Origin: Rhizobium sp. Q54
GTDB taxonomy: Bacteria > Pseudomonadota > Alphaproteobacteria > Rhizobiales > Beijerinckiaceae
Direction of reading: 5' to 3'
Length of the DNA stretch: 64,000 nt
Assembly (NCBI GenBank): GCA_945878875.1
Contig: CAMCUC010000003.1
Span: 9,516-73,515 of the forward strand
The translations under genes and the position numbers were made by a program. The number at the start of each line of letters is the position of its first letter. Position 1 is the first letter of the stretch. The notes beneath the pieces were generated by a model. It was not told the origin of the DNA, ran no database searches, and was given only the letters and a program-made list of their open reading frames with translations. Below are positions 19,192-38,420 of the stretch, piece by piece.

Positions 19192-20145
19192 TTGACGACC
19201 CTTTTTATAAGCCATCCATCCGCCTTGCTGCACGACATGGGGCCCGGCCATCCCGAACGCCCGGACCGGGTGCGCGTCATAGAGCGCGCGCTGGAGGCTG
19301 AAGCCTTTCAGATGCTGGCGCGCGAGCGGGCGGCGCGCGGCGATTTCGAGCAGATTATCCGCTGCCATCCCGAAGCCTATGTGCGCAGCCTTGAGGAGGT
19401 GGCGCCGCAGCACGGCCTGCTGCATCTGGACGGCGACACCTGCATGAATCCAGGCACGTGGGAGGCTGCGCTTTATGGCGTGGGCGCCGCCTGTCAGGCG
19501 GTGGACGAAGTGATGGGCGGCAAAGCGGCCAACGCGTTCGTGGCGATGCGCCCGCCCGGCCACCATGCGGAAATCTCGACGCCGATGGGCTTTTGCTTTT
19601 TCAACAACGCCGCCATCGCCGCCCGTCACGCGCAGGCCGTGCAGAGCGCCACCCGCGTCGCAATTATGGATTTCGACGTTCACCACGGCAACGGCACTCA
19701 AGACATCTTCTGGGCCGACGGTTCGGTGATGTACGCCTCGACGCACCAGATGCCGCTGTTTCCCGGCACCGGCGCCGCCAACGAGATCGGCGAGATGAAT
19801 ACAATCGTCAACGCGCCGCTGCAGGCAGGCGATTCGGGTCCGCAATTTCGTCAAGCGATGGAGATCGCGATCCTGCCCAGGCTCATCGCTTTCCGCCCCG
19901 ATCTCGTGATTATATCGGCCGGCTTTGACGCCCATCGGCGCGACCCGCTGGCGCAGATCAATTTGCTGGAGGAGGACTTCGCCTGGGCGACCGCGCGGCT
20001 GATGGACGTGGCGGACGCAAGCGCCGGCGGCCGGCTCGTGTCGCTGCTTGAGGGCGGGTATGATCTGACCGCGCTGGCCGGCTCCGTCAGCGCCCATGTC
20101 TCAACGCTGATGGGGCGGTCGCCGGGCGCTGCTTCTGGATCATGA
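19192..20145 (+). CDS. Histone deacetylase family (AcuC/AphA-like) protein
   Basis: [44 protein letters not shown]; TTG start. Confidence 0.93.
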
Positions 20146-20162
20146 GACACGTCAAGACTTGA

Positions 20163-20981
20163 ATGCTTTCGAGACTTGTCTTAGGCGATTTCTCCCTATT
20201 AAATAATATCATGGAACAACGCGCGATTTTTCATGCGTTTGCCTTCGTCGCCGCACTCCTGTTTGCGGGGCCTTCAGTGCGCGCACAGACCGGCGCGGTG
20301 CCCGAGCCATGCGCCAATCGCATGTTTGAGGGACGCAACTATCTTGTCTGCGTCGCGCCGCCTAAAGGCGACCTGCGGTTGTTCTTCACCGGCCCGGACG
20401 GAGAGCCCTTTGGCGCGTTCGCCAATGTGCGCGAGGCGCTTGCGCTTTCGGGAGAGCGTCTTGTATTTGCGATGAACGCGGGCATGTACAATCCAGACTT
20501 TGCGCCGTCCGGCCTTTATGTGGAGCGCGGCGTGCAACGCAAGGCCGCCAACCAGCGCCCTGGCGCCGGCAATTTTCACCTGAAGCCCAATGGCGTGTTC
20601 TGGGTCAATCCGGACGGGCAAAGCGGCGTCACGGAGACCGCGCGCTATCTCGCCCAACGCATTCAGCCCGCCTACGCAACGCAATCTGGCCCGATGCTGC
20701 TGATCGACGGCAAGCTGCATCCGCGCATTCGCGAGGACGGCACTTCGCGCAAAATCCGCAACGGGGTCGGCGCCTGCGAGGAAGGCCGCACATCGTTCGC
20801 GATCTCGAACGAGCCGGTGACGTTCCACGAATTCGCGCTGCTGTTCAAAGACGACTTGAAATGCCCCGACGCGCTTTATCTCGACGGCTCGATCTCCGCC
20901 GTCTACGCGCCCTCGCTGGGTCGCCACGACCGCTGGCGCCCGATGGGGCCCATCGTGGGCATGGTGGCGAAGGGGAAGTAG
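20163..20981 (+). CDS. Phosphodiester glycosidase family protein (YigE-like)
   Basis: FAMNAGMY, GNFHLKPNGVF, ATQSGPML, RKIRNGVG, ALYLDGS; start may be downstream (MEQRA). Confidence 0.85.
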   Translation: MLSRLVLGDFSLLNNIMEQRAIFHAFAFVAALLFAGPSVRAQTGAVPEPCANRMFEGRNYLVCVAPPKGDLRLFFTGPDGEPFGAFANVREALALSGERLVFAMNAGMYNPDFAPSGLYVERGVQRKAANQRPGAGNFHLKPNGVFWVNPDGQSGVTETARYLAQRIQPAYATQSGPMLLIDGKLHPRIREDGTSRKIRNGVGACEEGRTSFAISNEPVTFHEFALLFKDDLKCPDALYLDGSISAVYAPSLGRHDRWRPMGPIVGMVAKGK

Positions 20982-21666: not shown

Positions 21667-22040
21667 AGATCGGCGCGTGCGAGCCGCAGGTCTATGCCCA
21701 CGGCTGCTATGCGCTCGGGGATCGGCGGCTTGAGTTTACGCACGCGCACATGCACCGCGACGACGCGCGGAAATTGCGCCAGCAGGCCTCGCGCCAAGGC
21801 AGCCGCAGCAGCTTCCACCAGCTTGTAGCGCTTCTCCACGAACAGCTCGCGCGTGATGCGCACCACGGCGGCGTAATCCAGCGCGTCATGCAGATCGTCG
21901 CTGTCGGCCTCGCGGCCAAGATCGGCCTCAAGTTCAAGATCAACCGTGAACGGCTGGCCGAACTCTTTCTCATGCGCATGCCAGCCGTGATAGGCGTGCA
22001 CTTCAAGCTGTTCGATGATGACGCGTCCCGCTAGTTTCAT
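21663..22040 (-). CDS. folB: Dihydroneopterin aldolase
   Basis: HAYHG...EKEFGQPFTVDL, DYAAV, LVEA, VRKLKPP. Confidence 0.93.
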   Translation of the reverse strand: MKLAGRVIIEQLEVHAYHGWHAHEKEFGQPFTVDLELEADLGREADSDDLHDALDYAAVVRITRELFVEKRYKLVEAAAAALARGLLAQFPRVVAVHVRVRKLKPPIPERIAAVGIDLRLARADL

Positions 22041-22990
22041 GGCCCGCGACCCTTAATGGCTGAAAGAACGTTCAACGCCTGCGCATGTTCTGCGACGTCG
22101 TGAACGCGAATGATGTCGGCACCGTGCATGGCGCCAAACACATGCGCCGCGAGCGAGCCCGCAACGCGCTCTGCTGCAATGCTTTGTCCTGTTGCCGCGC
22201 CGATGCAGCGCTTGCGCGAGGCGCCAAGCAAGACCGGCAGATCAAATGCCGCGCGCAGTTCGGCAAGCCTGCGCATCTGCTCGAAACTCTGCTGATGGGT
22301 GCGGCCAAAGCCGATGCCCGGATCGATGATGATCTTGTCGCGCGCCACGCCCGCAGCCAGCGCGATCTCAATGGAGCGGGTAAGGAACGCACACGCATCT
22401 TCGTAGATGTCGATGGCGGGATCTTCGCTCGCCCGGTTGTGCATCAGCACGCAATGCACGCCTGTGCTCGCGACCACGCGCGCCATGTCGGCGTCAAACT
22501 GGAAGCCCCATACGTCGTTGACGATTGTGGCCCCCGCTTCAATCGCGCGCGCGGCCACGGCGGCTTTCATCGTGTCGATAGAGATCGGCAGCCGCGTTGA
22601 AGCGTTCAATGCGCGAACGACTGGAACCACCCGCGCAATCTCGTCTTCAACGCTGACGGGCGCGGCGCCGGGGCGCGTCGACTCGCCGCCAATGTCGAGA
22701 ATATGCGCGCCTTCGCCCGCAAGCTTCTGGCCATGCGCGATGGCGCGCTCCTGATCGAGATAAAGCCCGCCGTCTGAAAACGAATCCGGCGTGACGTTGA
22801 CCACGCCCATGATCTGCGTCGAGCCGGTCCATTTGAGCGCAATTCCCGGCAAAGCGGGCGCCTCAAGGGCAGGCGCGCGCGGGGTGACGTCGCGGGCTTG
22901 CGCCGGATCGGCGGGCTCGGGCTTGTCGTCGAGCGCGTTCATGGCGCTGCGAACGCCGCGACCCAAAGCAAACATGTATTTATCGAACAT
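22037..22990 (-). CDS. folP: Dihydropteroate synthase with N-terminal extension
   Basis: MGVVNVTPDSFSDGG, DIGGESTRPGA, ISIDT, DPGIGFG, GASRK, IIRVHDV; GAGG RBS before 22990. Confidence 0.93.
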   Translation of the reverse strand: MFDKYMFALGRGVRSAMNALDDKPEPADPAQARDVTPRAPALEAPALPGIALKWTGSTQIMGVVNVTPDSFSDGGLYLDQERAIAHGQKLAGEGAHILDIGGESTRPGAAPVSVEDEIARVVPVVRALNASTRLPISIDTMKAAVAARAIEAGATIVNDVWGFQFDADMARVVASTGVHCVLMHNRASEDPAIDIYEDACAFLTRSIEIALAAGVARDKIIIDPGIGFGRTHQQSFEQMRRLAELRAAFDLPVLLGASRKRCIGAATGQSIAAERVAGSLAAHVFGAMHGADIIRVHDVAEHAQALNVLSAIKGRGP

Positions 22991-23007
22991 GGACCAGCCT
23001 CGCTCGC

Positions 23008-24126
23008 TTAACGCGGGAACGGCCAACGCGGCGCCCCTGCCCCGGTTTGGGCGCGGTGACGCAGGAACGCGTCGGCCAAAACAACGGCCATCATCGCTTC
23101 CCCAACAGGCACGGCGCGGATGCCAACGCAAGGATCGTGACGACCCTTGGTGCGAATATCGACCTCGGCGCCGAAACGATCAACCGAGCGGCGGTGCGTC
23201 AAAATCGACGACGTCGGCTTGACGGCGAAGCGCGCCACGATCTGCTGGCCGGTCGAGAGCCCGCCGATGATGCCGCCCGCATGGTTGGAGAGAAACAACG
23301 GCGCCCCGTCATTGCCCAGCCGCATCTCGTCGGCGTTTTCCTCGCCTGACAGAGCAGCGCTGGCCATGCCGTCGCCGATTTCGACGCCCTTCACAGCGTT
23401 GATCGACATCAGCGCCGAGGCCAGCTCTGCATCAAGCTTGCCGTAAAGCGGCGCGCCCCAGCCGGGCGGCACGCCGTCGGCCACCAGCTCGATCACCGCG
23501 CCGCAGGACGAGCCGGACTTGCGCACGCCGTCGAGATAATCGATCCAAAGCGCAGCAGCTTTGGCGTCCGGGCAGAAGAAGGGGTTCTCGTCCACCTGCG
23601 CCCAATCCCAATTGGCGCGGTCGATTTTGTGCGGCCCCATTTGCACGAGGGCGCCGCGAATGGTCACGCCGCTCATGAGCTTGCGCGCAATTCCGCCAGC
23701 AGCGACCCGCATTGCGGTTTCGCGCGCGGAAGAGCGCCCGCCGCCGCGATAATCGCGGATGCCGTATTTCTCGTCATAGACGTAATCGGCGTGGCCGGGC
23801 CGGTATTGGTGAGCGATCTCGCCGTAATCTTTCGAGCGCTGATCCACGTTCTCGATGATGAGCCCGATGGAGGCGCCGGTGGTGAGCTGGCGCCCGCTGG
23901 CCTCGTCCACCATCACGCCCGAGACGATCCGGACCTGATCGGGCTCCTGGCGCTGGGTAGTGAAGCGCGACTGGCCGGGGCGGCGCTTGTCGAGGTAGCC
24001 CTGGAGATCGGCCTCGCTCAGCTCAACCAGCGGCGGGCAGCCGTCAACGACACAGCCGATCAGCGGCCCGTGGCTTTCGCCAAAGGTAGTGAACCTGAAC
24101 AAATGGCCGAACGTGTTGTGGGACAT
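23008..24126 (-). CDS. aroC: Chorismate synthase
   Basis: [43 protein letters not shown]. Confidence 0.97.
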
Positions 24127-24227
24127 GGAAGGTTCCGCAAAAGACCGCGACCAGCCTGCGCGAGTTTTGAGCGCGCGAGCCGCTTTACATGCAGCTTTTA
24201 CTAGGGGCCGGGCGCGGCGCGGTCAAA

Positions 24228-27200
24228 TCAGGCCGCCGCGCGCCCCTCCTGCTTGTCAGCGGCGAGCGCCGGAACGAACGGCTCGGCTGGAGCGCCAACC
24301 CATTGCGTGTTGCCGGGTATCGCCTCGCCCTTCATCACGACCGTCAGGGGCCCCAATAGCGCCCAGTCTCCGACTACGGAATCATAGAGCACCGTAGCGC
24401 CCGGCCCAACCGTGACGCCGCACCCCAGATGCACGCGACCGACCTTCATGATGCGATCCTCGTAAAGGTGCGTCTGCAGGCAGGACATCATGTTCAGGGA
24501 GCAATAATCGCCCACCGTCACGCAATCGAACTCGGTGACGTCAGTCAGCTCCATCCAGACGCCCTTGCCAATCCGGCAGCCGTACAGCCTGAGCGCCCAC
24601 GGCAAGAAAGGCGTGCCGCGCAGAAACTCGCTCGACGCCTTGCCCACCAGCCCTCCGTAGAGCACGGCGATAGCTTCCGTGCGCATGGCCCAGAACGACC
24701 ACATCGGTTTCATGACCGGCTTGTAAACGCCCATCAGCACCCATTTGATGGAAGCGCAGAACACAATCGCCACTATCGCCATAGCTATTCCAGACGCCAG
24801 GAAATAGGCGATCGCCAGCCCCCAATCGCCTGTCTCCAGAGGCATGGCGATAACGTCGGCGGTGATGTAGGCCATCGAGATGAACAGCGCGGTCGGCAAG
24901 GACGTATGCAGCGCTTCGAACACATACCGGAACGCCTTGAACCACATCGGCGGCTGGTAGGTGAAATTAGCGGAGATCGCCACCTTCTGCCGGTTGGGGA
25001 TCGACATCGCGGGCGAGCCAAACCATGTCTCTTTTTGCCCGACGCGCTTGCCCTCGGGCAGTTTGGACTTCACGCCAATCAGCGCGTCGTCCTCGATCAC
25101 GGCGCCGGCGGAAATGACGCAATCATTGCCAAAGAACACGCGGTCGCCGGTCTTCATTTTTTCGAGAACCATCCAGCCGCGATGCAATTCCTCGTCGCCG
25201 AACACCGCTTCGTCGCCGATGAAATTGTCGGCGCCGATATCCACGAGATCATAACGCCCGGCAAGATTGGTCGAGATTTCACTACCCTTGCCGATCTTGG
25301 CGCCCATCGCGCGATACCAATGGCGCATGTAGAGCGTGGCATAGAGCGACGACAAAGTCTCCAGCGTCACTTCAGTGGCGAGCCCCACAATCCATTTGCG
25401 CAGATAGAAGTTGGAATGGATCGAGTAAACGCCGGTGGAGACGCGCGGCAAAATCATCCAGCGCACGGCGACGATGACGACCATAGCCACCACGACCAGC
25501 GCGAACGCCGTCGGCCACGTCAGCATCGGCAACATCGACCACGGAATCTCGTAATCGACCACGCCTTTGCTGTCGATCCAGTTGTCGAGATTGTAGAGGA
25601 CGTAGAAGGCCGGGAAGATCGGCAACAGCCCCAGCATCAAAATGACGATGTAGGACAGAACGTAAATCACGCCATGGACGGAGCGGCGCAGCGCGCTGGC
25701 CTGCGCCACAGGCGGCAGGGCGGCCACGTCCACCATGCCGGTTTTGCGCGCGGGCGAGCCGTCCCATATCTCGGCGTCAGGTACGATGGTTCCCGAAAGC
25801 AAAGCGGTGAGATCGCCAATTTGCGCGTCACGCCCGATGTGAACGTTGGGGCCAAAAACCGAGCAATTACCGGTATAGGCACCGTCGCCAATCGAGATCG
25901 GGCCGATATGCATCTTGTCGCCGATCACTTGCGTGTTGGCGAACTTGGTCTTCAGCCCGGTCGAAACGTTGTCGCCAATCGTCAAAAGGTCGATGGCGCC
26001 GGCTTCGAACTCGCCGATCATGGAATCTTTGCCTATTTTGGCGCCCAAAGCCCGCATGTACCAGCGCATCAACGGCGAGCATTGCAGGAACTTCAGGGCG
26101 GTGACCTGAACGAGGCGCTGCACAAACCAGACGCGGAAATAATAGACACCCCAAAGCGGGTAAACGCCCGGCTTCGTGCGCCCGATCACCGCCCATTTCA
26201 GCGCGACGACAAGCCCCTTCATCCCGATATTGGTGACGACGTAAACGCCCATCAACGTCGCCATTTCGACCCATATCGACGCGTCTGACGAGACAATCCA
26301 GATCGAGGCCAGAAACAGGCCGAGCCATTGGATGGTCACGAAGCTGAAGATCAGCACGAGAGCTGCGGCCTGCGCAGACCCACACAGAAAACGGCGCATG
26401 AGGGGGGGCGGCGTGAACGAAAGGTCCAGATTGGCGCGCTCGCCCATCTGCGCCGCGCGCCCGTCCAGCACGTTTCCCAGATTGCGCAAAGTGCGCGTCG
26501 AATAAAGCTCCTGAAGGGTGACGGTGGCGAAGGCCGGCGTCTGGCGCAAGATCGAGACGAACCGCGCCGCCAGCAGCGAATGACCGCCCAGATCGGTGAA
26601 AAAGTCAGCGTCGAACGCAATGGCCTGCGGCGGCAGCACCGCTTTTGCCGCCTCCAGCAATTTCGCCTCTGTTTCCGTTCGCGGATCTTCCTGCGCCTCA
26701 AGCGCTTCCTGAACCGACAGCTGGCGCTTCTTCAATTCGTTGCGATTGACCTTGCCGGAGGGCAGGCGCGGCAATTCCGTCAGCGCCTCAAACCGGGCCG
26801 GCACCATGTAGGCGGGCAGAGTCTCGCGCAATTGCGTGCGCAGCGCTTTGGGCTCCAGCTCGCTGGAACCCGCGCCAGGCACGACGAAAGCAACCAATTG
26901 ATCGAGCCCGTCGTCGGTGCGCAGCACAACAGCGACCTGCCCTATGCCCTCCAGGTTGGAGAGCCGCGCCTCGATCTCGCCCAGCTCGACGCGAAAGCCG
27001 CGAATCTTCACCTGATCGTCGATGCGGCCACGGAAAAGAATGTCGCCCTTGTCGTCAAGCGCCACCGCATCGCCCGAGCGATAGAGAATGGGATCGCCGC
27101 CGTTTTGTCCAAACGGATTGGGAATGAACTTCTCAGCCGTAAGGTCTTCGCGCCCAAGATAACCCATGGCCACGCCCGGCCCGCCAATAAGCAATTCGCC

Positions 27201-28376
27201 TTCTTTGCCCGGCACGGCAAGCGTCATGTCCTCGTTGACGACGTAGCAGGTGTAATTGGGAATCGGCTTGCCGATGGTGACTGCCTCGCCAACGCGAACT
27301 TCCGATATGGTCGCCACCACCGTCGCCTCGGTGGGGCCGTAGCTGTTGAAAATCTTGCGGTGGGGCGCGCACCAGCGGGCGCCCAACGAGGGTGGGCACG
27401 CCTCGCCGCCCAGAATGATGATGCGCAAACCCGGAACATCGCGCGACAGCATCGAGAGCAGCGTCGGCACGGTATCGAGCACGGTCACGCCAGCCGCATC
27501 CATCACGTCGGGCAGAGCGTCCGCGTCGCCCATGATCGCGGGCGTGGCGACGAACAGGCTGGCGCCGACGAGATAGGGAACCCAGATTTCCTCCATCGAC
27601 AGATCGAAGGCAACGGAGGCGCCCTGAAACACAACATCGGAGGAGACAAGTTCGTACACTTCGTTTGCCGCGCGCAAATAATGGCAGATATTGCGCCCGG
27701 TAATCACAATGCCCTTGGGCTTGCCCGTCGAGCCGGACGTGTAAATCATATAGGCGGGATGATCGGGCGTGCAGCCCAGCGCGCGCGCGTCGATATCGGT
27801 CGCATCGTCAGGATCGACCAGCGTCTCCGCCATAAGCACGGGGCAAGAAGCGTGCTCTGAAAAAGAAGCATGCTCTGAATTTGCATGGCCCGAGGCCCGC
27901 GCAAAATGATCGGGGCCGACCAGCAAAGCCTTCGCCTGACAATCGACGAGGCATTCTGAGACGCGCTCCACCGGCACGTCGGAATCGAACGGCAGCCAGG
28001 CGGCGCCGGTCTTGGCGATTGCGATCTGGCTGATGAGCAATTCAGGACCGCGCGCCATCCACAGGCCGACGACGCAGCCCGGACCTATCGCATGGCGACG
28101 CAAGCCGCGCGCTAGCGCATTGGCCTTTGCGTCAACCTGCGCATAAGTCAGCCGCTGCTCACCTGAGACGATGCAGATGGAGTCTTTGAAAGCGCTGGCG
28201 CTGGCGGCGAAAATCTCGGCCAGCAATTCATCGCGCAGCAAGTGCGGCATGGCCGGACCGTAAAGGGCGGCTGGAATGGATAAATTCTGGTCAAAAATTG
28301 CGTCATCGCCATCTAGGCCGTCACGCAGTCCGTGAACGTTCGTCATGATAATGTTGCGCCCGGATGTGGAGGGCAT
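24228..28376 (-). CDS. Pls/PosA-type single-module membrane NRPS (A-T-TM-3x left-handed beta-helix-like domains); putative homopoly-amino-acid synthetase
   Basis: A-domain YTSGSTGKPKG, NSYGPTE, YRSGD, GRIDDQVKIRGFRVELGEIE, LPSGKVNR; T-domain FFTDLGGHS; TM pairs alternating with three GAKIG/GCRIG hexapeptide-repeat domains; start may be 28346. Confidence 0.9.
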   Translation of the reverse strand: MPSTSGRNIIMTNVHGLRDGLDGDDAIFDQNLSIPAALYGPAMPHLLRDELLAEIFAASASAFKDSICIVSGEQRLTYAQVDAKANALARGLRRHAIGPGCVVGLWMARGPELLISQIAIAKTGAAWLPFDSDVPVERVSECLVDCQAKALLVGPDHFARASGHANSEHASFSEHASCPVLMAETLVDPDDATDIDARALGCTPDHPAYMIYTSGSTGKPKGIVITGRNICHYLRAANEVYELVSSDVVFQGASVAFDLSMEEIWVPYLVGASLFVATPAIMGDADALPDVMDAAGVTVLDTVPTLLSMLSRDVPGLRIIILGGEACPPSLGARWCAPHRKIFNSYGPTEATVVATISEVRVGEAVTIGKPIPNYTCYVVNEDMTLAVPGKEGELLIGGPGVAMGYLGREDLTAEKFIPNPFGQNGGDPILYRSGDAVALDDKGDILFRGRIDDQVKIRGFRVELGEIEARLSNLEGIGQVAVVLRTDDGLDQLVAFVVPGAGSSELEPKALRTQLRETLPAYMVPARFEALTELPRLPSGKVNRNELKKRQLSVQEALEAQEDPRTETEAKLLEAAKAVLPPQAIAFDADFFTDLGGHSLLAARFVSILRQTPAFATVTLQELYSTRTLRNLGNVLDGRAAQMGERANLDLSFTPPPLMRRFLCGSAQAAALVLIFSFVTIQWLGLFLASIWIVSSDASIWVEMATLMGVYVVTNIGMKGLVVALKWAVIGRTKPGVYPLWGVYYFRVWFVQRLVQVTALKFLQCSPLMRWYMRALGAKIGKDSMIGEFEAGAIDLLTIGDNVSTGLKTKFANTQVIGDKMHIGPISIGDGAYTGNCSVFGPNVHIGRDAQIGDLTALLSGTIVPDAEIWDGSPARKTGMVDVAALPPVAQASALRRSVHGVIYVLSYIVILMLGLLPIFPAFYVLYNLDNWIDSKGVVDYEIPWSMLPMLTWPTAFALVVVAMVVIVAVRWMILPRVSTGVYSIHSNFYLRKWIVGLATEVTLETLSSLYATLYMRHWYRAMGAKIGKGSEISTNLAGRYDLVDIGADNFIGDEAVFGDEELHRGWMVLEKMKTGDRVFFGNDCVISAGAVIEDDALIGVKSKLPEGKRVGQKETWFGSPAMSIPNRQKVAISANFTYQPPMWFKAFRYVFEALHTSLPTALFISMAYITADVIAMPLETGDWGLAIAYFLASGIAMAIVAIVFCASIKWVLMGVYKPVMKPMWSFWAMRTEAIAVLYGGLVGKASSEFLRGTPFLPWALRLYGCRIGKGVWMELTDVTEFDCVTVGDYCSLNMMSCLQTHLYEDRIMKVGRVHLGCGVTVGPGATVLYDSVVGDWALLGPLTVVMKGEAIPGNTQWVGAPAEPFVPALAADKQEGRAAA
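27845..27880 (-). repeat. Imperfect 18-bp in-frame tandem duplication in the NRPS A domain (SEHASF/SEHASC)
   Basis: AAGAAGCGTGCTCTGAAA followed by AAGAAGCATGCTCTGAAT. Confidence 0.75.
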
Positions 28377-28507
28377 AGCTGTTGTTTAATCGCAACAACG
28401 TCCCCCCAGACGATTGCGCGATAAAACTCGCGCTAATGTGGATAGCATAATTGCCGAACTGCGTCTTGTAGCCGATGCACCTGAACGGGATCTGAACGCA
28501 AACAGCG

Positions 28508-29104
28508 TTAAACCCAGTCAAAGCGACCATTCGCGAACACCAACACGCGGCCTTGCCAGATGTCAGCAAGCGCGGCGCGTTCAGTGGCGAGCCCGCCAAG
28601 CATGGCCATCAGCGCGCGTGCGACGCCGCCGTGCGAAACCGCCACCACGTCGCCCTCAAGCGATTCAACCCACGGCAGAAGGCGATCCGCCAACATTGAA
28701 TAGCTTTCGCCATTGGGCGGCGTGAAGCTCCATTTATCGCCCTCACGCCAGGAAGCGGCTTGCGGTGCGCGCGCTTTCACCTCCGGCCATGTGAGCCCCG
28801 CCCAATCGCCAAAGGTCAATTCGGCGATCAGCGGCTCAATCGCATAATCTTGCGGCGCCAGCCCCATCGCCGCGCGGGCAATCTCCATCGTATCGCGCGC
28901 CCGCCCCAGCGGAGACGAGACGAACGAATAGGCGCCCGAGCGAACCGCTTCGGCGCCAAGCAGTTTCAGCACGGTCTTACCCGCCTTCTCCGCCTGAAAA
29001 CGCCCCGTGTCATTGAGCGGAATATCCATCTGCCCCTGAAGCCGCCCTTCAGCGTTCCAATCGGTCTGCCCGTGACGGAGGAAGACGAGGCGATGTTTGA
29101 GCAT
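28508..29104 (-). CDS. Histidine phosphatase (phosphoglycerate mutase) family protein
   Basis: LRHGQTDWN, RLQG, SSPLGRARDTM, PPNGES, VSHGG; start at MLKHRL. Confidence 0.92.
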   Translation of the reverse strand: MLKHRLVFLRHGQTDWNAEGRLQGQMDIPLNDTGRFQAEKAGKTVLKLLGAEAVRSGAYSFVSSPLGRARDTMEIARAAMGLAPQDYAIEPLIAELTFGDWAGLTWPEVKARAPQAASWREGDKWSFTPPNGESYSMLADRLLPWVESLEGDVVAVSHGGVARALMAMLGGLATERAALADIWQGRVLVFANGRFDWV

Positions 29105-29117
29105 GGGGTCCTGTGGG

Positions 29118-29237
29118 GGAGTAGCGAGTAGCGAGTGGCGAATAGGGAAGAAGAGAGAGCCCTCAAAGGTGGCGCGCAAAGCGCGACGGATGAGGGATTT
29201 CTACTCCCTACTCCCTACTCGCTATCCGCTATTCGCT
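29118..29237. repeat. Heptamer-built inverted-repeat element (GAGTAGC-like units / CTACTCC-like units)
   Basis: Left arm GGAGTAG-CGAGTAG-CGAGTGG-CGAATAG; right arm CTACTCC-CTACTCC-CTACTCG-CTATCCG-CTATTCG. Confidence 0.8.
29166..29197 (+). repeat. 32-bp fragment identical to part of the palindromic element at 46013-46064
   Basis: AAGGTGGCGCGCAAAGCGCGACGGATGAGGGA occurs at 29166 and 46033. Confidence 0.85.
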
Positions 29238-30068
29238 GCTAACAACCGAAATATCCGGCGCCGCAGGGTTCTTCATGCCCACCACATGATAGCCAGCATC
29301 CACGTGCAGGATTTCCCCGGTGATGCCGCGCGACATCGGCGACAGCATGAAGGCTGCCGTCTCGCCGACTTCTTCAATCGTGACCGTGCGGCGCAGCGGC
29401 GAATTGTACTCGTTCCACTTGAGAATATAGCGGAAGTCGCCGATGCCTGACGCGGCCAGCGTCTTGATGGGACCGGCGGAAATGGCGTTGACGCGGATTT
29501 GCTTCTCGCCAAGGTCGGCGGCCAGATAGCGAACGCTGGCTTCCAGCGCGGCTTTGGCGACGCCCATCACGTTGTAATGGGGCATCCATTTTTCGGCGCC
29601 GTAATAGGTCAGCGTCAGCAGCGATCCGCCCTCGCTCATCAGCTTCTCGGCGCGCTGGGCGACAGCCGTGAAGGAATAGCAGGAGATCAGCAACGATTTG
29701 GTGAAATTGGCCTCGCTCGTCTCAACATAGCGACCGGTCAACTCGTCCTTGTCGGAGAAGGCGATGCAATGGACGACGAAATCAATCGAACCCCAAAGCT
29801 TTGCCGCCTCGTCGAACACCGCGTCGATGGTCGCGGGGTCGGTCACGTCGCAATGGCCCAGCACATGGGCGCCAAGGCTTTGAGCGAGCGGGCGCACGCG
29901 CTTCTCCAGCGCATCGCCCTGGTAGGTGAAGGCGAGTTCCGCGCCCTGATCATGGGCTGCCTTGGCGATTCCCCATGCTATGGAGCGATTGTTCGCCACG
30001 CCAAGCACAAGGCCGCGTTTTCCTGCGAGGATTCCTGTGGCAGGGGTGTTGGTTATCGGCATAGTCAT
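29229..30068 (-). CDS. fabI: Enoyl-ACP reductase
   Basis: GVANNRSIAWGIA, YNVMGVAKAALEASVRYLA, VNAISAGPIKTLAASGI. Confidence 0.96.
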   Translation of the reverse strand: MTMPITNTPATGILAGKRGLVLGVANNRSIAWGIAKAAHDQGAELAFTYQGDALEKRVRPLAQSLGAHVLGHCDVTDPATIDAVFDEAAKLWGSIDFVVHCIAFSDKDELTGRYVETSEANFTKSLLISCYSFTAVAQRAEKLMSEGGSLLTLTYYGAEKWMPHYNVMGVAKAALEASVRYLAADLGEKQIRVNAISAGPIKTLAASGIGDFRYILKWNEYNSPLRRTVTIEEVGETAAFMLSPMSRGITGEILHVDAGYHVVGMKNPAAPDISVVSSE

Positions 30069-30298
30069 CGGGCTTGTCCGTCGAGGGCTGAAACCGCGGC
30101 CCCCTGGCGCGCGCTGCTCGCCGTTTAAGACGTGCGCTGCGGGAAGGCAAGTTCGTCACGGCAACCGCCGCGGAAGCGAGGCAGGGCTCGATCCGCTTTT
30201 TATCGCCGTTTTGTTCAGAAAAACAGCGGCAAAGCTCGTAAATGACCATTGCCGGAGCCCTCGCGCGCGCTACCCTAGATTAAATAGGGAGACCATTT

Positions 30299-30847
30299 GT
30301 GGTGGCGCGCATCTCCTCGGACGCATTCGACGATCAACTTGAGCTGGGCCTACGACGGTTCGCGCAAGCTGTGGGTTTCGACCCCGGTCAGGTTGACCGC
30401 GCGGTTGAAAGCGGCCTGCACAGAGCCCGGAGCCTGCAAGGCGCGGGCGCCATCACGCGCGAGGAGGGGCGTCCCGTCGCCTATGGCGTCATCGCCCGGG
30501 CGTTTCTGGTCCATGCGGCGGCCCGGCATGCGATGGCCCGGCGACAGACCCCCGCCAGCTGCAAATCCGCGCGGCTGACCCCCGTGACGGTCGACCAGCC
30601 GCCCTGCAGCGAGGTTGAAAGGCTCCGCGTCGGCCTGACCAGCCTGCCGCCGCTGGAGCGCGCGGTTCTGCTGCTCGTTGTGCTGGAGGGTCTGAGCTAT
30701 TCCCAGGCTTCCTCGGCACTGGGAATTGGGCGCGTCGAATGCGCGCAGCTTCTGGCGGCCGCCCGCAGCGGTCTCGCGCTGCGCCTCGAGCCGGCCCGCG
30801 CACGCACGCCCGCTTCTGGGCGACCGCAATTGCGCCTCGTCACATGA
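30299..30847 (+). CDS. Degenerate ECF-type sigma factor-like protein (sigma4 recognisable)
   Basis: LPPLERAVLLLVVLEGLSYSQASSALGI region-4 HTH; region 2 barely recognisable; GTG start. Confidence 0.65.
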   Translation: MVARISSDAFDDQLELGLRRFAQAVGFDPGQVDRAVESGLHRARSLQGAGAITREEGRPVAYGVIARAFLVHAAARHAMARRQTPASCKSARLTPVTVDQPPCSEVERLRVGLTSLPPLERAVLLLVVLEGLSYSQASSALGIGRVECAQLLAAARSGLALRLEPARARTPASGRPQLRLVT

Positions 30848-38036: not shown

Positions 38037-38063
38037 CCGCCCCACAAATCTTTCCCTTCCGCC

Positions 38064-38092
38064 CTTTCACAAAACCCTGCGACCGCCTATAT
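38064..38092 (+). promoter_or_regulatory. Putative sigma70 promoter of ssrA (-10 CTATAT)
   Basis: CGCCTATATT just upstream of the tmRNA; weak -35. Confidence 0.4.
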
Positions 38093-38118
38093 TCGGTTTG
38101 TCTTCGCAAGAAGACTAT

Positions 38119-38386
38119 GGCGATAAACGGACATCGTAATAAACCATCCGGACCCGGGGGCGGTACCCGGCGCCTCCACCCCAGCCCGCGCGCGTCGCGG
38201 GTTGCGGCGGGGGCGAAACAGGATCGACGGGGGTGTAAAAGGTGGTCTTTTGCCCGGCATGATACCGCCGTTATCGGGTCAATCCTATAGTTGCCAATGA
38301 CAACTATGCTCCGGTCGCCGTCGCCGCTTAAGCAGCGCCGTCACCGGGAATCAAGTCCTGTTGGTTAGCACTTTCAGGCGGGGCTC
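38119..38386 (+). ncRNA. ssrA: Two-piece (circularly permuted) tmRNA; tag ANDNYAPVAVAA
   Basis: T-arm/acceptor 3' part CCGGGGGCGGTACCCGGCGCCTCCACC (to 38180) precedes the 5' GGGGGCG (38209) with a G3:U pair; tag ORF GCC AAT GAC AAC...GCT TAA at 38293-38331; followed by sspB. Ends approximate. Confidence 0.93.
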
Positions 38387-38420
38387 GGAGGCGCCTGGCA
38401 ACAGAAGCCTCCACTTTTTT
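38387..38420 (+). terminator. ssrA terminator
   Basis: GGAGGC...GCCTCC stem followed by ACTTTTTT. Confidence 0.6.

What the first reader, a model, noticed from the sequence alone, without database searches (positions are those of the whole stretch)
24228..28376. Stand-alone Pls/PosA-type polymer synthetase with a basic-amino-acid pocket (DLEDIGSVVK)
Seen: A domain, T domain (GGHS) and membrane segments alternating with three hexapeptide-repeat domains, with no C or TE domain. Known: this is the architecture of epsilon-poly-L-lysine synthetase and related poly-diamino-acid synthetases. Manual alignment to GrsA pocket positions gives D-L-E-D-I-G-S-V-V-K; acidic residues at 239 and 278 are typical of diamino/basic substrates (Lys/Orn/Dab/Arg). 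Inference: this alphaproteobacterium may export a cationic isopeptide homopolymer of unknown monomer. Unusually, no PPTase, peptidase or exporter is adjacent, and the gene sits in the same orientation inside the core fabI-phosphatase-aroC-fol run.
Basis: partly seen in the sequence, partly recalled or inferred. Interest (0 to 1): 0.72.

Follow-up and report, generated by a model that had tools for sequence, protein, structure and literature searches.

The report
Pls/PosA-type polycation synthetase gene
This is an intact gene for a membrane-bound enzyme of the known poly-lysine/poly-ornithine synthetase family; databases and papers already recognise its branch, which is inherited at one chromosomal spot across a large group of alphaproteobacteria, but nobody has tested which basic amino acid that branch polymerises.

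Summary
ORF 24228-28376 (-), 1382 aa, has an adenylation domain, a carrier domain (Ser600 in GGHS) and a C-terminal domain that matches NCBIfam TIGR02353 (Pls/PosA family) end to end at 573 bits (cut-off 423). It has three hydrophobic hairpins alternating with three left-handed beta-helices and no C or TE domain.

A gap-free alignment to solved PosA and Pls A domains gives the pocket DLEDIGSVVK.

This branch is already known. Patel & Gulick 2023 list DLEDIGTVVK (Rhizobium) and DLEDLGTVTK (Methylobacterium) as uncharacterised. A Bosea genome note reports an antiSMASH NAPAA cluster with DLEDLGTVVK in all eight complete Bosea genomes. This scan has also met the family, and this branch, on other DNA.

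New here:
- The gene is single-copy in 137 of 200 good genomes (40 of 50 genera) of its family, but rare outside it.
- It sits between a histidine phosphatase gene and aroC, with no conserved accessory gene.
- The pocket is fixed as DLED[ILV]G[ST]VVK in 89 orthologues.
- dN/dS is about 0.1.
- It is the only NRPS in this 2.8-Mb lake bacterium, and an Sfp-type PPTase lies elsewhere.
- Its sister clade carries the exact PosA (ornithine) code.

The monomer remains unknown; I favour ornithine or lysine. Verdict: new member of a known kind.

The parts
24228..28376 (-). Complete Pls/PosA-family synthetase gene (1382 aa; P0001)
   Evidence: ORF list and translation. TIGR02353 scores 573 bits against a cut-off of 423. 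dN/dS is 0.09-0.10 against close orthologues. A near-identical gene occurs in at least 20 lake-water metagenome runs.
26751..28211 (-). Adenylation domain (residues 56-542) with pocket D258 L259 E262 D301 I321 G323 S345 V353 V354 K542
   Evidence: Pfam AMP-binding and AMP-binding_C; TIGR01733 over its cut-off. The closest solved A domain is PosA 8G95 at 377 bits, against 241 bits for Pls 7WEW. The pocket was read from a gap-free alignment.
26472..26654 (-). Carrier (T) domain, residues 575-635. The phosphopantetheine attachment Ser600 lies in GGHS (codon 26577-26579).
   Evidence: Pfam PP-binding. GGHS is invariant in 89 orthologues.
25722..26378 (-). Polymerisation-domain unit 1: TM hairpin (about 667-726) plus left-handed beta-helix (about 787-885)
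   Evidence: Hydropathy; LbH match to PDB chains; AF2 model. It is 35% identical to unit 2, E 8e-22.
24999..25685 (-). Polymerisation-domain unit 2: TM hairpin (about 898-981) plus beta-helix (about 1028-1126)
24249..24899 (-). Polymerisation-domain unit 3: TM hairpin (about 1160-1219) plus beta-helix (about 1267-1376). It carries most family-invariant residues, including Q1301-T-H1303-L-Y-E1306-D and M1348-K-G-E.
   Evidence: The invariant columns come from alignment A1, 32 sequences of four code classes. A catalytic role for H1303 or E1306 is inference only.
28508..29179 (-). Histidine-phosphatase-family gene, the conserved upstream neighbour (context, not a partner)
   Evidence: Pfam His_Phos_1. 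It lies upstream of the synthetase in 52 of 69 related loci. It also sits between fabI and aroC in families without the synthetase.
29229..30068 (-). fabI (context)
   Evidence: NF006019 scores 513 bits against a cut-off of 452.
23008..24126 (-). aroC, the conserved downstream neighbour (context)
   Evidence: TIGR00033 and NF003793 over their cut-offs. It lies downstream on the same strand in 36 of 49 related loci.

Best explanation
The gene encodes a functional, membrane-anchored, single-module NRPS-like enzyme of the Pls/PosA family.

Proposed steps, all inferred from characterised relatives:
1. An Sfp-type PPTase encoded elsewhere in the genome converts Ser600 to the holo form.
2. The A domain adenylates one basic amino acid. 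Its alpha-amine is held by D258 and its side-chain amine by E262, with D301 possibly helping.
3. The amino acid is loaded as a thioester on the carrier domain.
4. The C-terminal domain is a pseudo-trimer of three beta-helices sitting on six membrane helices. It lets the side-chain amine of a free monomer or oligomer attack the thioester, repeatedly, giving an isopeptide-linked cationic homo-oligomer that is released without a TE domain.

My estimate for the monomer: L-ornithine about 40%, L-lysine about 25%, and another basic amino acid (Dab, Arg or a modified one) about 35%.

Shown here: family membership, intact motifs, pocket residues, purifying selection and distribution.
Inferred: every chemical step, the monomer and the polymer.
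For: Family membership and fold:
- TIGR02353 matches end to end over its cut-off, and the A and T motifs are intact.
- Three TM hairpin/LbH units are seen by hydropathy, internal similarity and a confident AF2 model.
- Fold search finds only trimeric LbH acyltransferases, as expected for this domain.

Pocket:
- D235 and E239, the two pocket residues conserved in all characterised family members (PMC10522769), are present.
- E239 plus D278 also occurs in canonical Lys and Orn domains, DGEDHGTVVK and DGEDHGTVTK (PMC12283262).
- The pocket is fixed as DLED[ILV]G[ST]VVK in 89 orthologues that are only 57-75% identical overall.

Selection: dN/dS is 0.09-0.10, against 0.05-0.08 for aroC.

Activation: the gene is the only amino-acid adenylation domain over the cut-off in the genome, and a 236-aa Sfp/HetI-like PPTase is present.

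Lean towards ornithine:
- The branch is sister (SH-aLRT 98) to a clade with the exact PosA code.
- PosA is by far the closest solved A domain.
- Position 236, the proposed chain-length ruler (Phe = Dap/Dab, Met = Orn, Ala = Lys), is Leu here, similar in size to Met.
- No EctB or Dat over the cut-off was found to supply Dab.
Against: - No member of this code class has been assayed; Patel & Gulick list it as uncharacterised.
- Four of ten pocket positions differ from PosA, including S331V, which removes a residue that hydrogen-bonds the ornithine delta-amine in PosA.
- Two to three positions differ from Pls.
- The tree held no lysine-type anchor and is unrooted.
- The genome is 92.8% complete, so a missing Dab-supply gene is weak evidence.
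- No degrading peptidase or exporter is conserved nearby, so the fate of the product is unknown.
Confidence: 0.8

Rival explanations
1. It is an epsilon-poly-L-lysine synthetase: same mechanism, with L-lysine as the monomer.
For: The code differs from Pls (DAESIGTVVK) only at positions 236 (A to L), 278 (S to D) and 322 (T to S). Position 322 is also Ser in codes that Patel & Gulick read as Lys. DGEDHGTVVK is a lysine code in canonical NRPSs.
Against: Leu at position 236 fills space that Ala leaves free for the longer lysine chain; in PosA the M218A change was needed to raise lysine activation. The A domain is much closer to PosA than to Pls: 377 against 241 bits over the whole domain, 126 against 78 bits over the pocket segment.
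Confidence: 0.25
2. It makes a polymer of a monomer not yet known for this family (for example arginine, Dab or a modified basic amino acid). The invariant second acidic residue D278 would be the determinant.
For: L236 and D278 are invariant in 89 orthologues. They are absent from all six characterised codes. The authors of the PosA study flagged the class as a candidate for new polymers.
Against: No dedicated precursor-supply or tailoring gene is linked in any of 80 loci. No EctB or Dat was found in this genome. This favours a monomer from central metabolism. In PosA, position 278 does not touch the substrate.
Confidence: 0.25
3. It is not a polymerase. The C-terminal acyltransferase-like domain transfers the carrier-bound aminoacyl group once to a membrane or envelope acceptor (lipid, glycan), which would explain near-core, vertical inheritance among housekeeping genes.
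For: The gene is present in 137 of 200 good genomes and 40 of 50 genera of the family, at a fixed locus and without any secondary-metabolite neighbours. It is retained as the sole NRPS in a 2.8-Mb genome. The LbH fold is that of acyltransferases.
Against: All seven characterised enzymes with this architecture make homopolymers. TIGR02353 matches end to end, and the branch nests inside polymer-making clades. No evidence points to any other acceptor.
Confidence: 0.08
4. It is an inactive relic or an assembly artefact.
For: None, beyond the weak ribosome-binding context upstream of the first ATG.
Against: The reading frame is uninterrupted, the motifs are intact and dN/dS is about 0.1. The same gene is assembled independently from at least 20 lake metagenomes.
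Confidence: 0.02

Closest known systems
PosA, delta-poly-L-ornithine synthetase of Acinetobacter baumannii (Patel & Gulick 2023, PMC10522769; A-domain structures 8G95-8G98)
   Same: Same A-T-(TM hairpin + LbH)x3 architecture and the same NCBIfam family. It is the closest solved A domain (377 bits; gap-free pocket alignment). D235, E239, G301, V330 and K517 are shared. The clade with PosA's exact code is the sister group in my tree. PosA is also stand-alone in a Gram-negative host.
   Different: The pocket differs at positions 236 (M to L), 278 (H to D), 299 (N to I), 322 (T to S, conservative) and 331 (S to V). The substrate is untested. Here the gene is a vertically inherited, near-core gene of a whole alphaproteobacterial family.
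Pls, epsilon-poly-L-lysine synthetase of Streptomyces albulus (Yamanaka et al. 2008, as cited in PMC10522769; A domain 7WEW)
   Same: Same architecture and presumed mechanism. The pocket is identical at 7 of 10 positions (DAESIGTVVK against DLEDIGSVVK).
   Different: A236L and S278D are fixed differences. The A domain is more distant (241 bits). The host is an actinomycete, and the product there is an established secreted antimicrobial.
The 'uncharacterised' DLEDIGTV[T/V/I]K class of Rhizobium hainanense and Methylobacterium (PMC10522769 Supplementary Table 2), and the NAPAA cluster with code DLedLgTVvK in all complete Bosea genomes (PMC10508160)
   Same: This is the same branch. Orthologues from Bosea, Camelimonas, Alsobacter, Methylocystis and others are 57-65% identical, carry DLED[ILV]G[ST]VVK and share the locus.
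   Different: This copy has Ser instead of Thr at position 322. That was the commoner state among the orthologues I collected (59 of 89 carry exactly DLEDIGSVVK).
Trimeric left-handed beta-helix acyltransferases (galactoside, maltose and serine O-acetyltransferases, LpxD)
   Same: Each of the three C-terminal units has this fold (Foldseek probability 1.0, TM-score 0.5-0.6 on the target). The three units pack as a pseudo-trimer, as the subunits of those enzymes do (PMC10522769).
   Different: Here there is one chain instead of three subunits, each unit is preceded by a membrane hairpin, the acyl donor is a carrier-bound aminoacyl thioester and the acceptor is an amine.

Membership tests
Pls/PosA family (cationic homo-poly(amino acid) synthetases; NCBIfam TIGR02353) | C-terminal domain of about 700 aa matching the family model over its curated cut-off | tested here: met
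   573.1 bits against a cut-off of 423.1, model positions 2-695 of 695; the genome search gave 575.6 bits.
Pls/PosA family | A single N-terminal amino-acid adenylation domain with intact core motifs | tested here: met
   TIGR01733 scores 382.7 bits against 317.4. Motifs A3, A5, A8 and A10 are present.
Pls/PosA family | Carrier domain with a phosphopantetheine attachment serine | tested here: met
   PP-binding 575-635. GGHS with Ser600 is invariant in orthologues.
Pls/PosA family | No condensation or thioesterase domain | tested here: met
   The Pfam scan at E <= 0.01 lists only AMP-binding, AMP-binding_C, PP-binding and LbH families.
Pls/PosA family | Six transmembrane helices in three pairs, alternating with three tandem soluble (C1-C3, LbH) domains | tested here: met
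   Hydropathy, LbH matches, internal repeats and an AF2 model with pLDDT 86 and pTM 0.88.
Pls/PosA family | Pocket Asp235 and Glu239, which bind the alpha-amine and the side-chain amine | tested here: met
   D258 and E262 align without gaps to PosA D217 and E221.
Pls/PosA family | Produces an isopeptide-linked homopolymer | not testable with these tools
   Needs enzyme assay and mass spectrometry.
PosA-type (delta-poly-L-ornithine) subgroup | Specificity code DMEHNGTVSK | tested here: not met
   The code is DLEDIGSVVK. Positions 236, 278, 299, 322 and 331 differ, although the clade is sister to the exact-code clade.
Pls-type (epsilon-poly-L-lysine) subgroup | Specificity code DAESIG[TS]VVK | tested here: not met
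   A236L and S278D are fixed across 89 orthologues.

The most novel reading that the evidence does not exclude
The DLED branch is not an occasional antibiotic gene. It is a vertically inherited, near-core gene of a whole family-level group of Hyphomicrobiales. It makes either a polymer of a monomer not yet known for this enzyme family, or a polycation with a physiological role in the cell envelope or surface rather than in competition.
Probability: 0.25. Interest if true: 0.6.

Novelty: new member of a known kind. Interest (0 to 1): 0.3.

Why it matters
Only seven polymers of this enzyme family are known, and several are useful antimicrobials or cell-penetrating carriers.

This branch is one of the largest untested ones. 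It is present in most genera of its family, including cultivable and genetically tractable relatives such as Bosea, Methylocystis, Camelimonas and Alsobacter.

Its fixed pocket and fixed chromosomal position mean that one assay in any member would settle the product for hundreds of species. Its near-core, partner-free inheritance raises the question of what a polycation does for the producer itself.

For this particular window, the finding is an ordinary, correctly read member of an annotated family.

Tried and rejected
1. The profile-free search of protein representatives with residues 183-1382 was swamped by giant multi-module NRPSs. Only one Pls-type representative appeared, at 60% identity. 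It therefore gave no diverse anchors. I classified clades by published specificity codes instead, using loci from genome searches.
2. No lysine-type (DAESIG) sequence turned up in the Pseudomonadota sample, so the tree cannot place Pls itself.
3. I looked for a riboswitch or other RNA upstream that might name the substrate and found none.
4. The promoter and terminator scan across 21800-30500 gave counts at or below chance, so the operon structure is unresolved.
5. I looked for a conserved accessory gene (peptidase, exporter, PPTase, precursor supply) in 80 related loci. Only fabI, the phosphatase and aroC recur. The variable gaps between the synthetase and aroC hold unrelated insertions: PIN and ParE toxins, PPK2, a TPR protein and a flavin reductase.
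6. I considered the phosphatase as a functional partner and rejected it, because it sits between fabI and aroC in families without the synthetase.
7. I searched for the Dab-supply genes EctB and Dat. Only generic class-III aminotransferases below the cut-off were found.
8. The PDB holds no solved C-terminal domain of the family.
9. A search of public sequencing runs (kind 'any') returned only DNA metagenomes. No RNA-specific search was run and no reads were laid, so expression is untested.
Full report
**What is there.** Window 24228-28376 (-) is one uninterrupted ORF of 1382 aa.
- Pfam finds AMP-binding (56-407), AMP-binding_C (467-542), PP-binding (575-635) and hexapeptide repeats, and no condensation or thioesterase domain.
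- NCBIfam TIGR02353, the model behind NCBI's product name 'Pls/PosA family non-ribosomal peptide synthetase', matches residues 668-1364 over its whole length at 573 bits (cut-off 423). The amino-acid adenylation model TIGR01733 is also over its cut-off.
- The A-domain core motifs and the GGHS carrier serine (Ser600) are intact.
- Hydropathy shows six hydrophobic segments in three pairs.
- Each pair precedes a left-handed beta-helix stretch that matches hexapeptide transferases and gamma-carbonic-anhydrase-like chains in the PDB.
- The three units are recognisably repeats of each other: units 1 and 2 are 35% identical (E 8e-22), and units 2 and 3 align at E 4e-7.
- An AlphaFold2 model of residues 650-1382, built on 32 family members, is confident (pLDDT 86.3, pTM 0.88). 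It shows a helical hairpin, short helices and a beta-helix three times over.
- Foldseek finds only trimeric LbH acyltransferases, one unit at a time. No solved structure of this domain exists.

**The pocket.** HMMER aligns residues 238-357 without gaps to the solved A domains of PosA (8G95-8G98) and Pls (7WEW).
- Read against their published codes, DMEHNGTVSK and DAESIGTVVK, the ten positions here are D258 L259 E262 D301 I321 G323 S345 V353 V354 K542.
- D235 and E239 are the two residues that hold the alpha-amine and the side-chain amine in PosA, and they are conserved in every characterised family member. Both are present.
- A Glu239/Asp278 pair also occurs in canonical lysine and ornithine domains, DGEDHGTVVK and DGEDHGTVTK (PMC12283262).

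**Already known.** Patel & Gulick (2023, PMC10522769) list Rhizobium hainanense DLEDIGTVVK and Methylobacterium DLEDLGTVTK as 'uncharacterized binding pocket'. They mention the class in Rhizobia, Methylobacterium and Archaea.
- A Bosea genome announcement (PMC10508160) reports an antiSMASH NAPAA cluster with code DLedLgTVvK in all eight complete Bosea genomes.
- NCBI already names orthologues from Alsobacter, Camelimonas, Enterovirga, Microvirga and Bosea as Pls/PosA family synthetases.
- I found no paper that assays a member of this class.
- Earlier reports of this scan met the family many times. They include this alphaproteobacterial branch and the same code, and reached the same verdict.

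**Context in the window.** All on the minus strand lie fabI (29229-30068), a histidine-phosphatase-family gene (28508-29179), the synthetase, aroC (23008-24126), folP, folB and folK.
- Further out are an ECF-sigma-like gene, an FAD monooxygenase, a DnaJ/CbpA-like gene, pdxH, a NAGPA-family gene, a deacetylase-family gene and an L,D-transpeptidase.
- There is no PPTase, peptidase or exporter.
- Elsewhere in the genome (2.84 Mb, 91 contigs, 92.8% complete) there are an AcpS-type PPTase and a 236-aa Sfp/HetI-like PPTase.
- The synthetase is the only amino-acid adenylation domain over the cut-off.
- No riboswitch lies upstream. Promoter and terminator consensus hits are at chance.

**Distribution.** The gene was found in 22 of 24 genomes of the same genus; the two without it are 57-58% complete.
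- It was found in 137 of 200 good-quality genomes and 40 of 50 genera of the same family, almost always as one copy.
- In an order-level sample outside the family, roughly one genome in eight has a family member.
- In a phylum-level sample the figures are 14 of 14 inside the family against 17 of 386 outside.
- The members found in the rest of the order and phylum carry other codes: DFEALGTVTK, DMEHNGTV[ST]K, DFECLSAVTK and others.
- The named relatives fetched from genome records are lake and soil Hyphomicrobiales. By NCBI family they are Beijerinckiaceae, Methylocystaceae, Methylobacteriaceae, Alsobacteraceae, Lichenihabitantaceae, Rhodoblastaceae, Chelatococcaceae and the Bosea group, at 57-75% identity. 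The nearest are lake MAGs at 91-95%.
- The gene itself is present nearly unchanged in at least 20 lake-water metagenome runs.

**A fixed locus.** In the 80 related loci, the counts are taken among loci with enough flank.
- The phosphatase gene is directly upstream in 52 of 69.
- fabI is upstream in 46 of 62.
- aroC is downstream on the same strand in 36 of 49.
- In five complete genomes of other families of the order that lack the synthetase, aroC is present and four of them still show the phosphatase (three also fabI) beside it. A gap of 0.5-3.3 kb between phosphatase and aroC holds other genes or none.
- The simplest reading is one insertion between the phosphatase and aroC in an ancestor of the family, then vertical inheritance with some losses. 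The phosphatase is a bystander.
- In genera where the synthetase and aroC are further apart, the gap holds unrelated insertions: PIN and ParE toxins, PPK2 and a TPR protein.
- No accessory gene is conserved.

**Selection.** Across 89 orthologues the pocket is DLED[ILV]G[ST]VVK, with eight of ten positions invariant, and GGHS is invariant.
- dN/dS against the two closest orthologues is 0.09-0.10, close to aroC at 0.05-0.08.
- The gene is clearly in use.

**Relationship to characterised enzymes.** A maximum-likelihood tree was built from 39 sequences over residues 250-1370 (IQ-TREE quick search, LG+G4, SH-aLRT support).
- The DLED branch is one clade (support 100).
- Its sister (support 98) is a clade with the exact PosA ornithine code. 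Another Orn-like clade lies just outside, and the Dap/Dab-like DFE codes are on the far side.
- I left out seven rows where my ORF picker took the wrong frame.
- No lysine-type sequence was in the sample, and the tree is unrooted.
- The PDB search agrees: PosA's A domain scores 377 bits against 241 for Pls, and 126 against 78 bits over the pocket segment.

**Mechanism and monomer.** By analogy with Pls and PosA, I expect four steps: priming of Ser600, adenylation and thioesterification of one basic amino acid, then repeated attack by the side-chain amine of a free monomer or oligomer in the membrane-associated pseudo-trimeric LbH domain, and release of oligomers of mixed length.
- Family-invariant residues cluster in the third unit (Q1301, H1303 and E1306 in QTHLYED; M1348-K-G-E). 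This suggests one main catalytic site there, which is inference.
- For the monomer I weigh four things. Position 236, the proposed chain-length ruler, is Leu, about the size of PosA's Met. The sister clade has the ornithine code. No linked or detectable precursor-supply gene exists, which points to a central-metabolism amino acid. No EctB or Dat was found.
- Against ornithine, Ser331, which binds the delta-amine in PosA, is Val here as in Pls, and Asp278 is a fixed novelty.
- My estimate: ornithine about 40%, lysine about 25%, something else about 35%.

**Verdict.** The gene is a new member of a known, automatically annotated family, in a branch already flagged in print as uncharacterised.

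That makes the branch a good, cheap target for one decisive assay, but it does not make this window surprising.

Noticed in passing
window 38061-38415 (+): An alphaproteobacterial two-piece (permuted) tmRNA gene: Rfam RF01849 at 299 bits, and RF04321.
   Followed up: no
window 19192-20145 (+) and 20163-20981 (+): A histone-deacetylase-family gene (Pfam Hist_deacetyl, E 1e-87; could be an acetylpolyamine or acetyl-lysine amidohydrolase) sits directly upstream of a NAGPA-family phosphodiester glycosidase gene. The NAGPA gene also recurs downstream of aroC in many related loci.
   Followed up: no
window 22037-23131 (-): The longest folP ORF (TTG start) overlaps aroC by 124 bases, but the Pterin_bind and DHPS matches begin only at residue 105-108. 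The real start is probably well downstream of 23131.
   Followed up: no
L066:12318-12764, L062:12893-13546, L048:12083-16158: In other genera the short stretch between the synthetase and aroC is an insertion spot. It holds a PIN-domain gene (Bosea), a ParE-toxin gene (Methylocystis) and a PPK2 polyphosphate kinase, a TPR protein and a flavin reductase (a Methylobacteriaceae MAG).
   Followed up: partly
L121:3909-5879: In a related family without the synthetase, the same phosphatase-aroC gap holds a 656-aa alpha/beta hydrolase (Abhydrolase_10). The gap is therefore variable across the order.
   Followed up: partly
window 24249-24899 (-), residues 1295-1364: Most residues invariant across four code classes of the family lie in the third beta-helix unit (N1295, Q1301, H1303, E1306, K1311, M1348-K-G-E, W1359). 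This hints that only one of the three pseudo-symmetric sites is catalytic.
   Followed up: partly
L108:1090-1800 (G000 contig 1): A 236-aa Sfp/HetI-like PPTase in a genome whose only NRPS is this synthetase. It may be the dedicated activating enzyme although it is unlinked. Its neighbours are a zinc alcohol dehydrogenase and a DUF4112 protein.
   Followed up: partly
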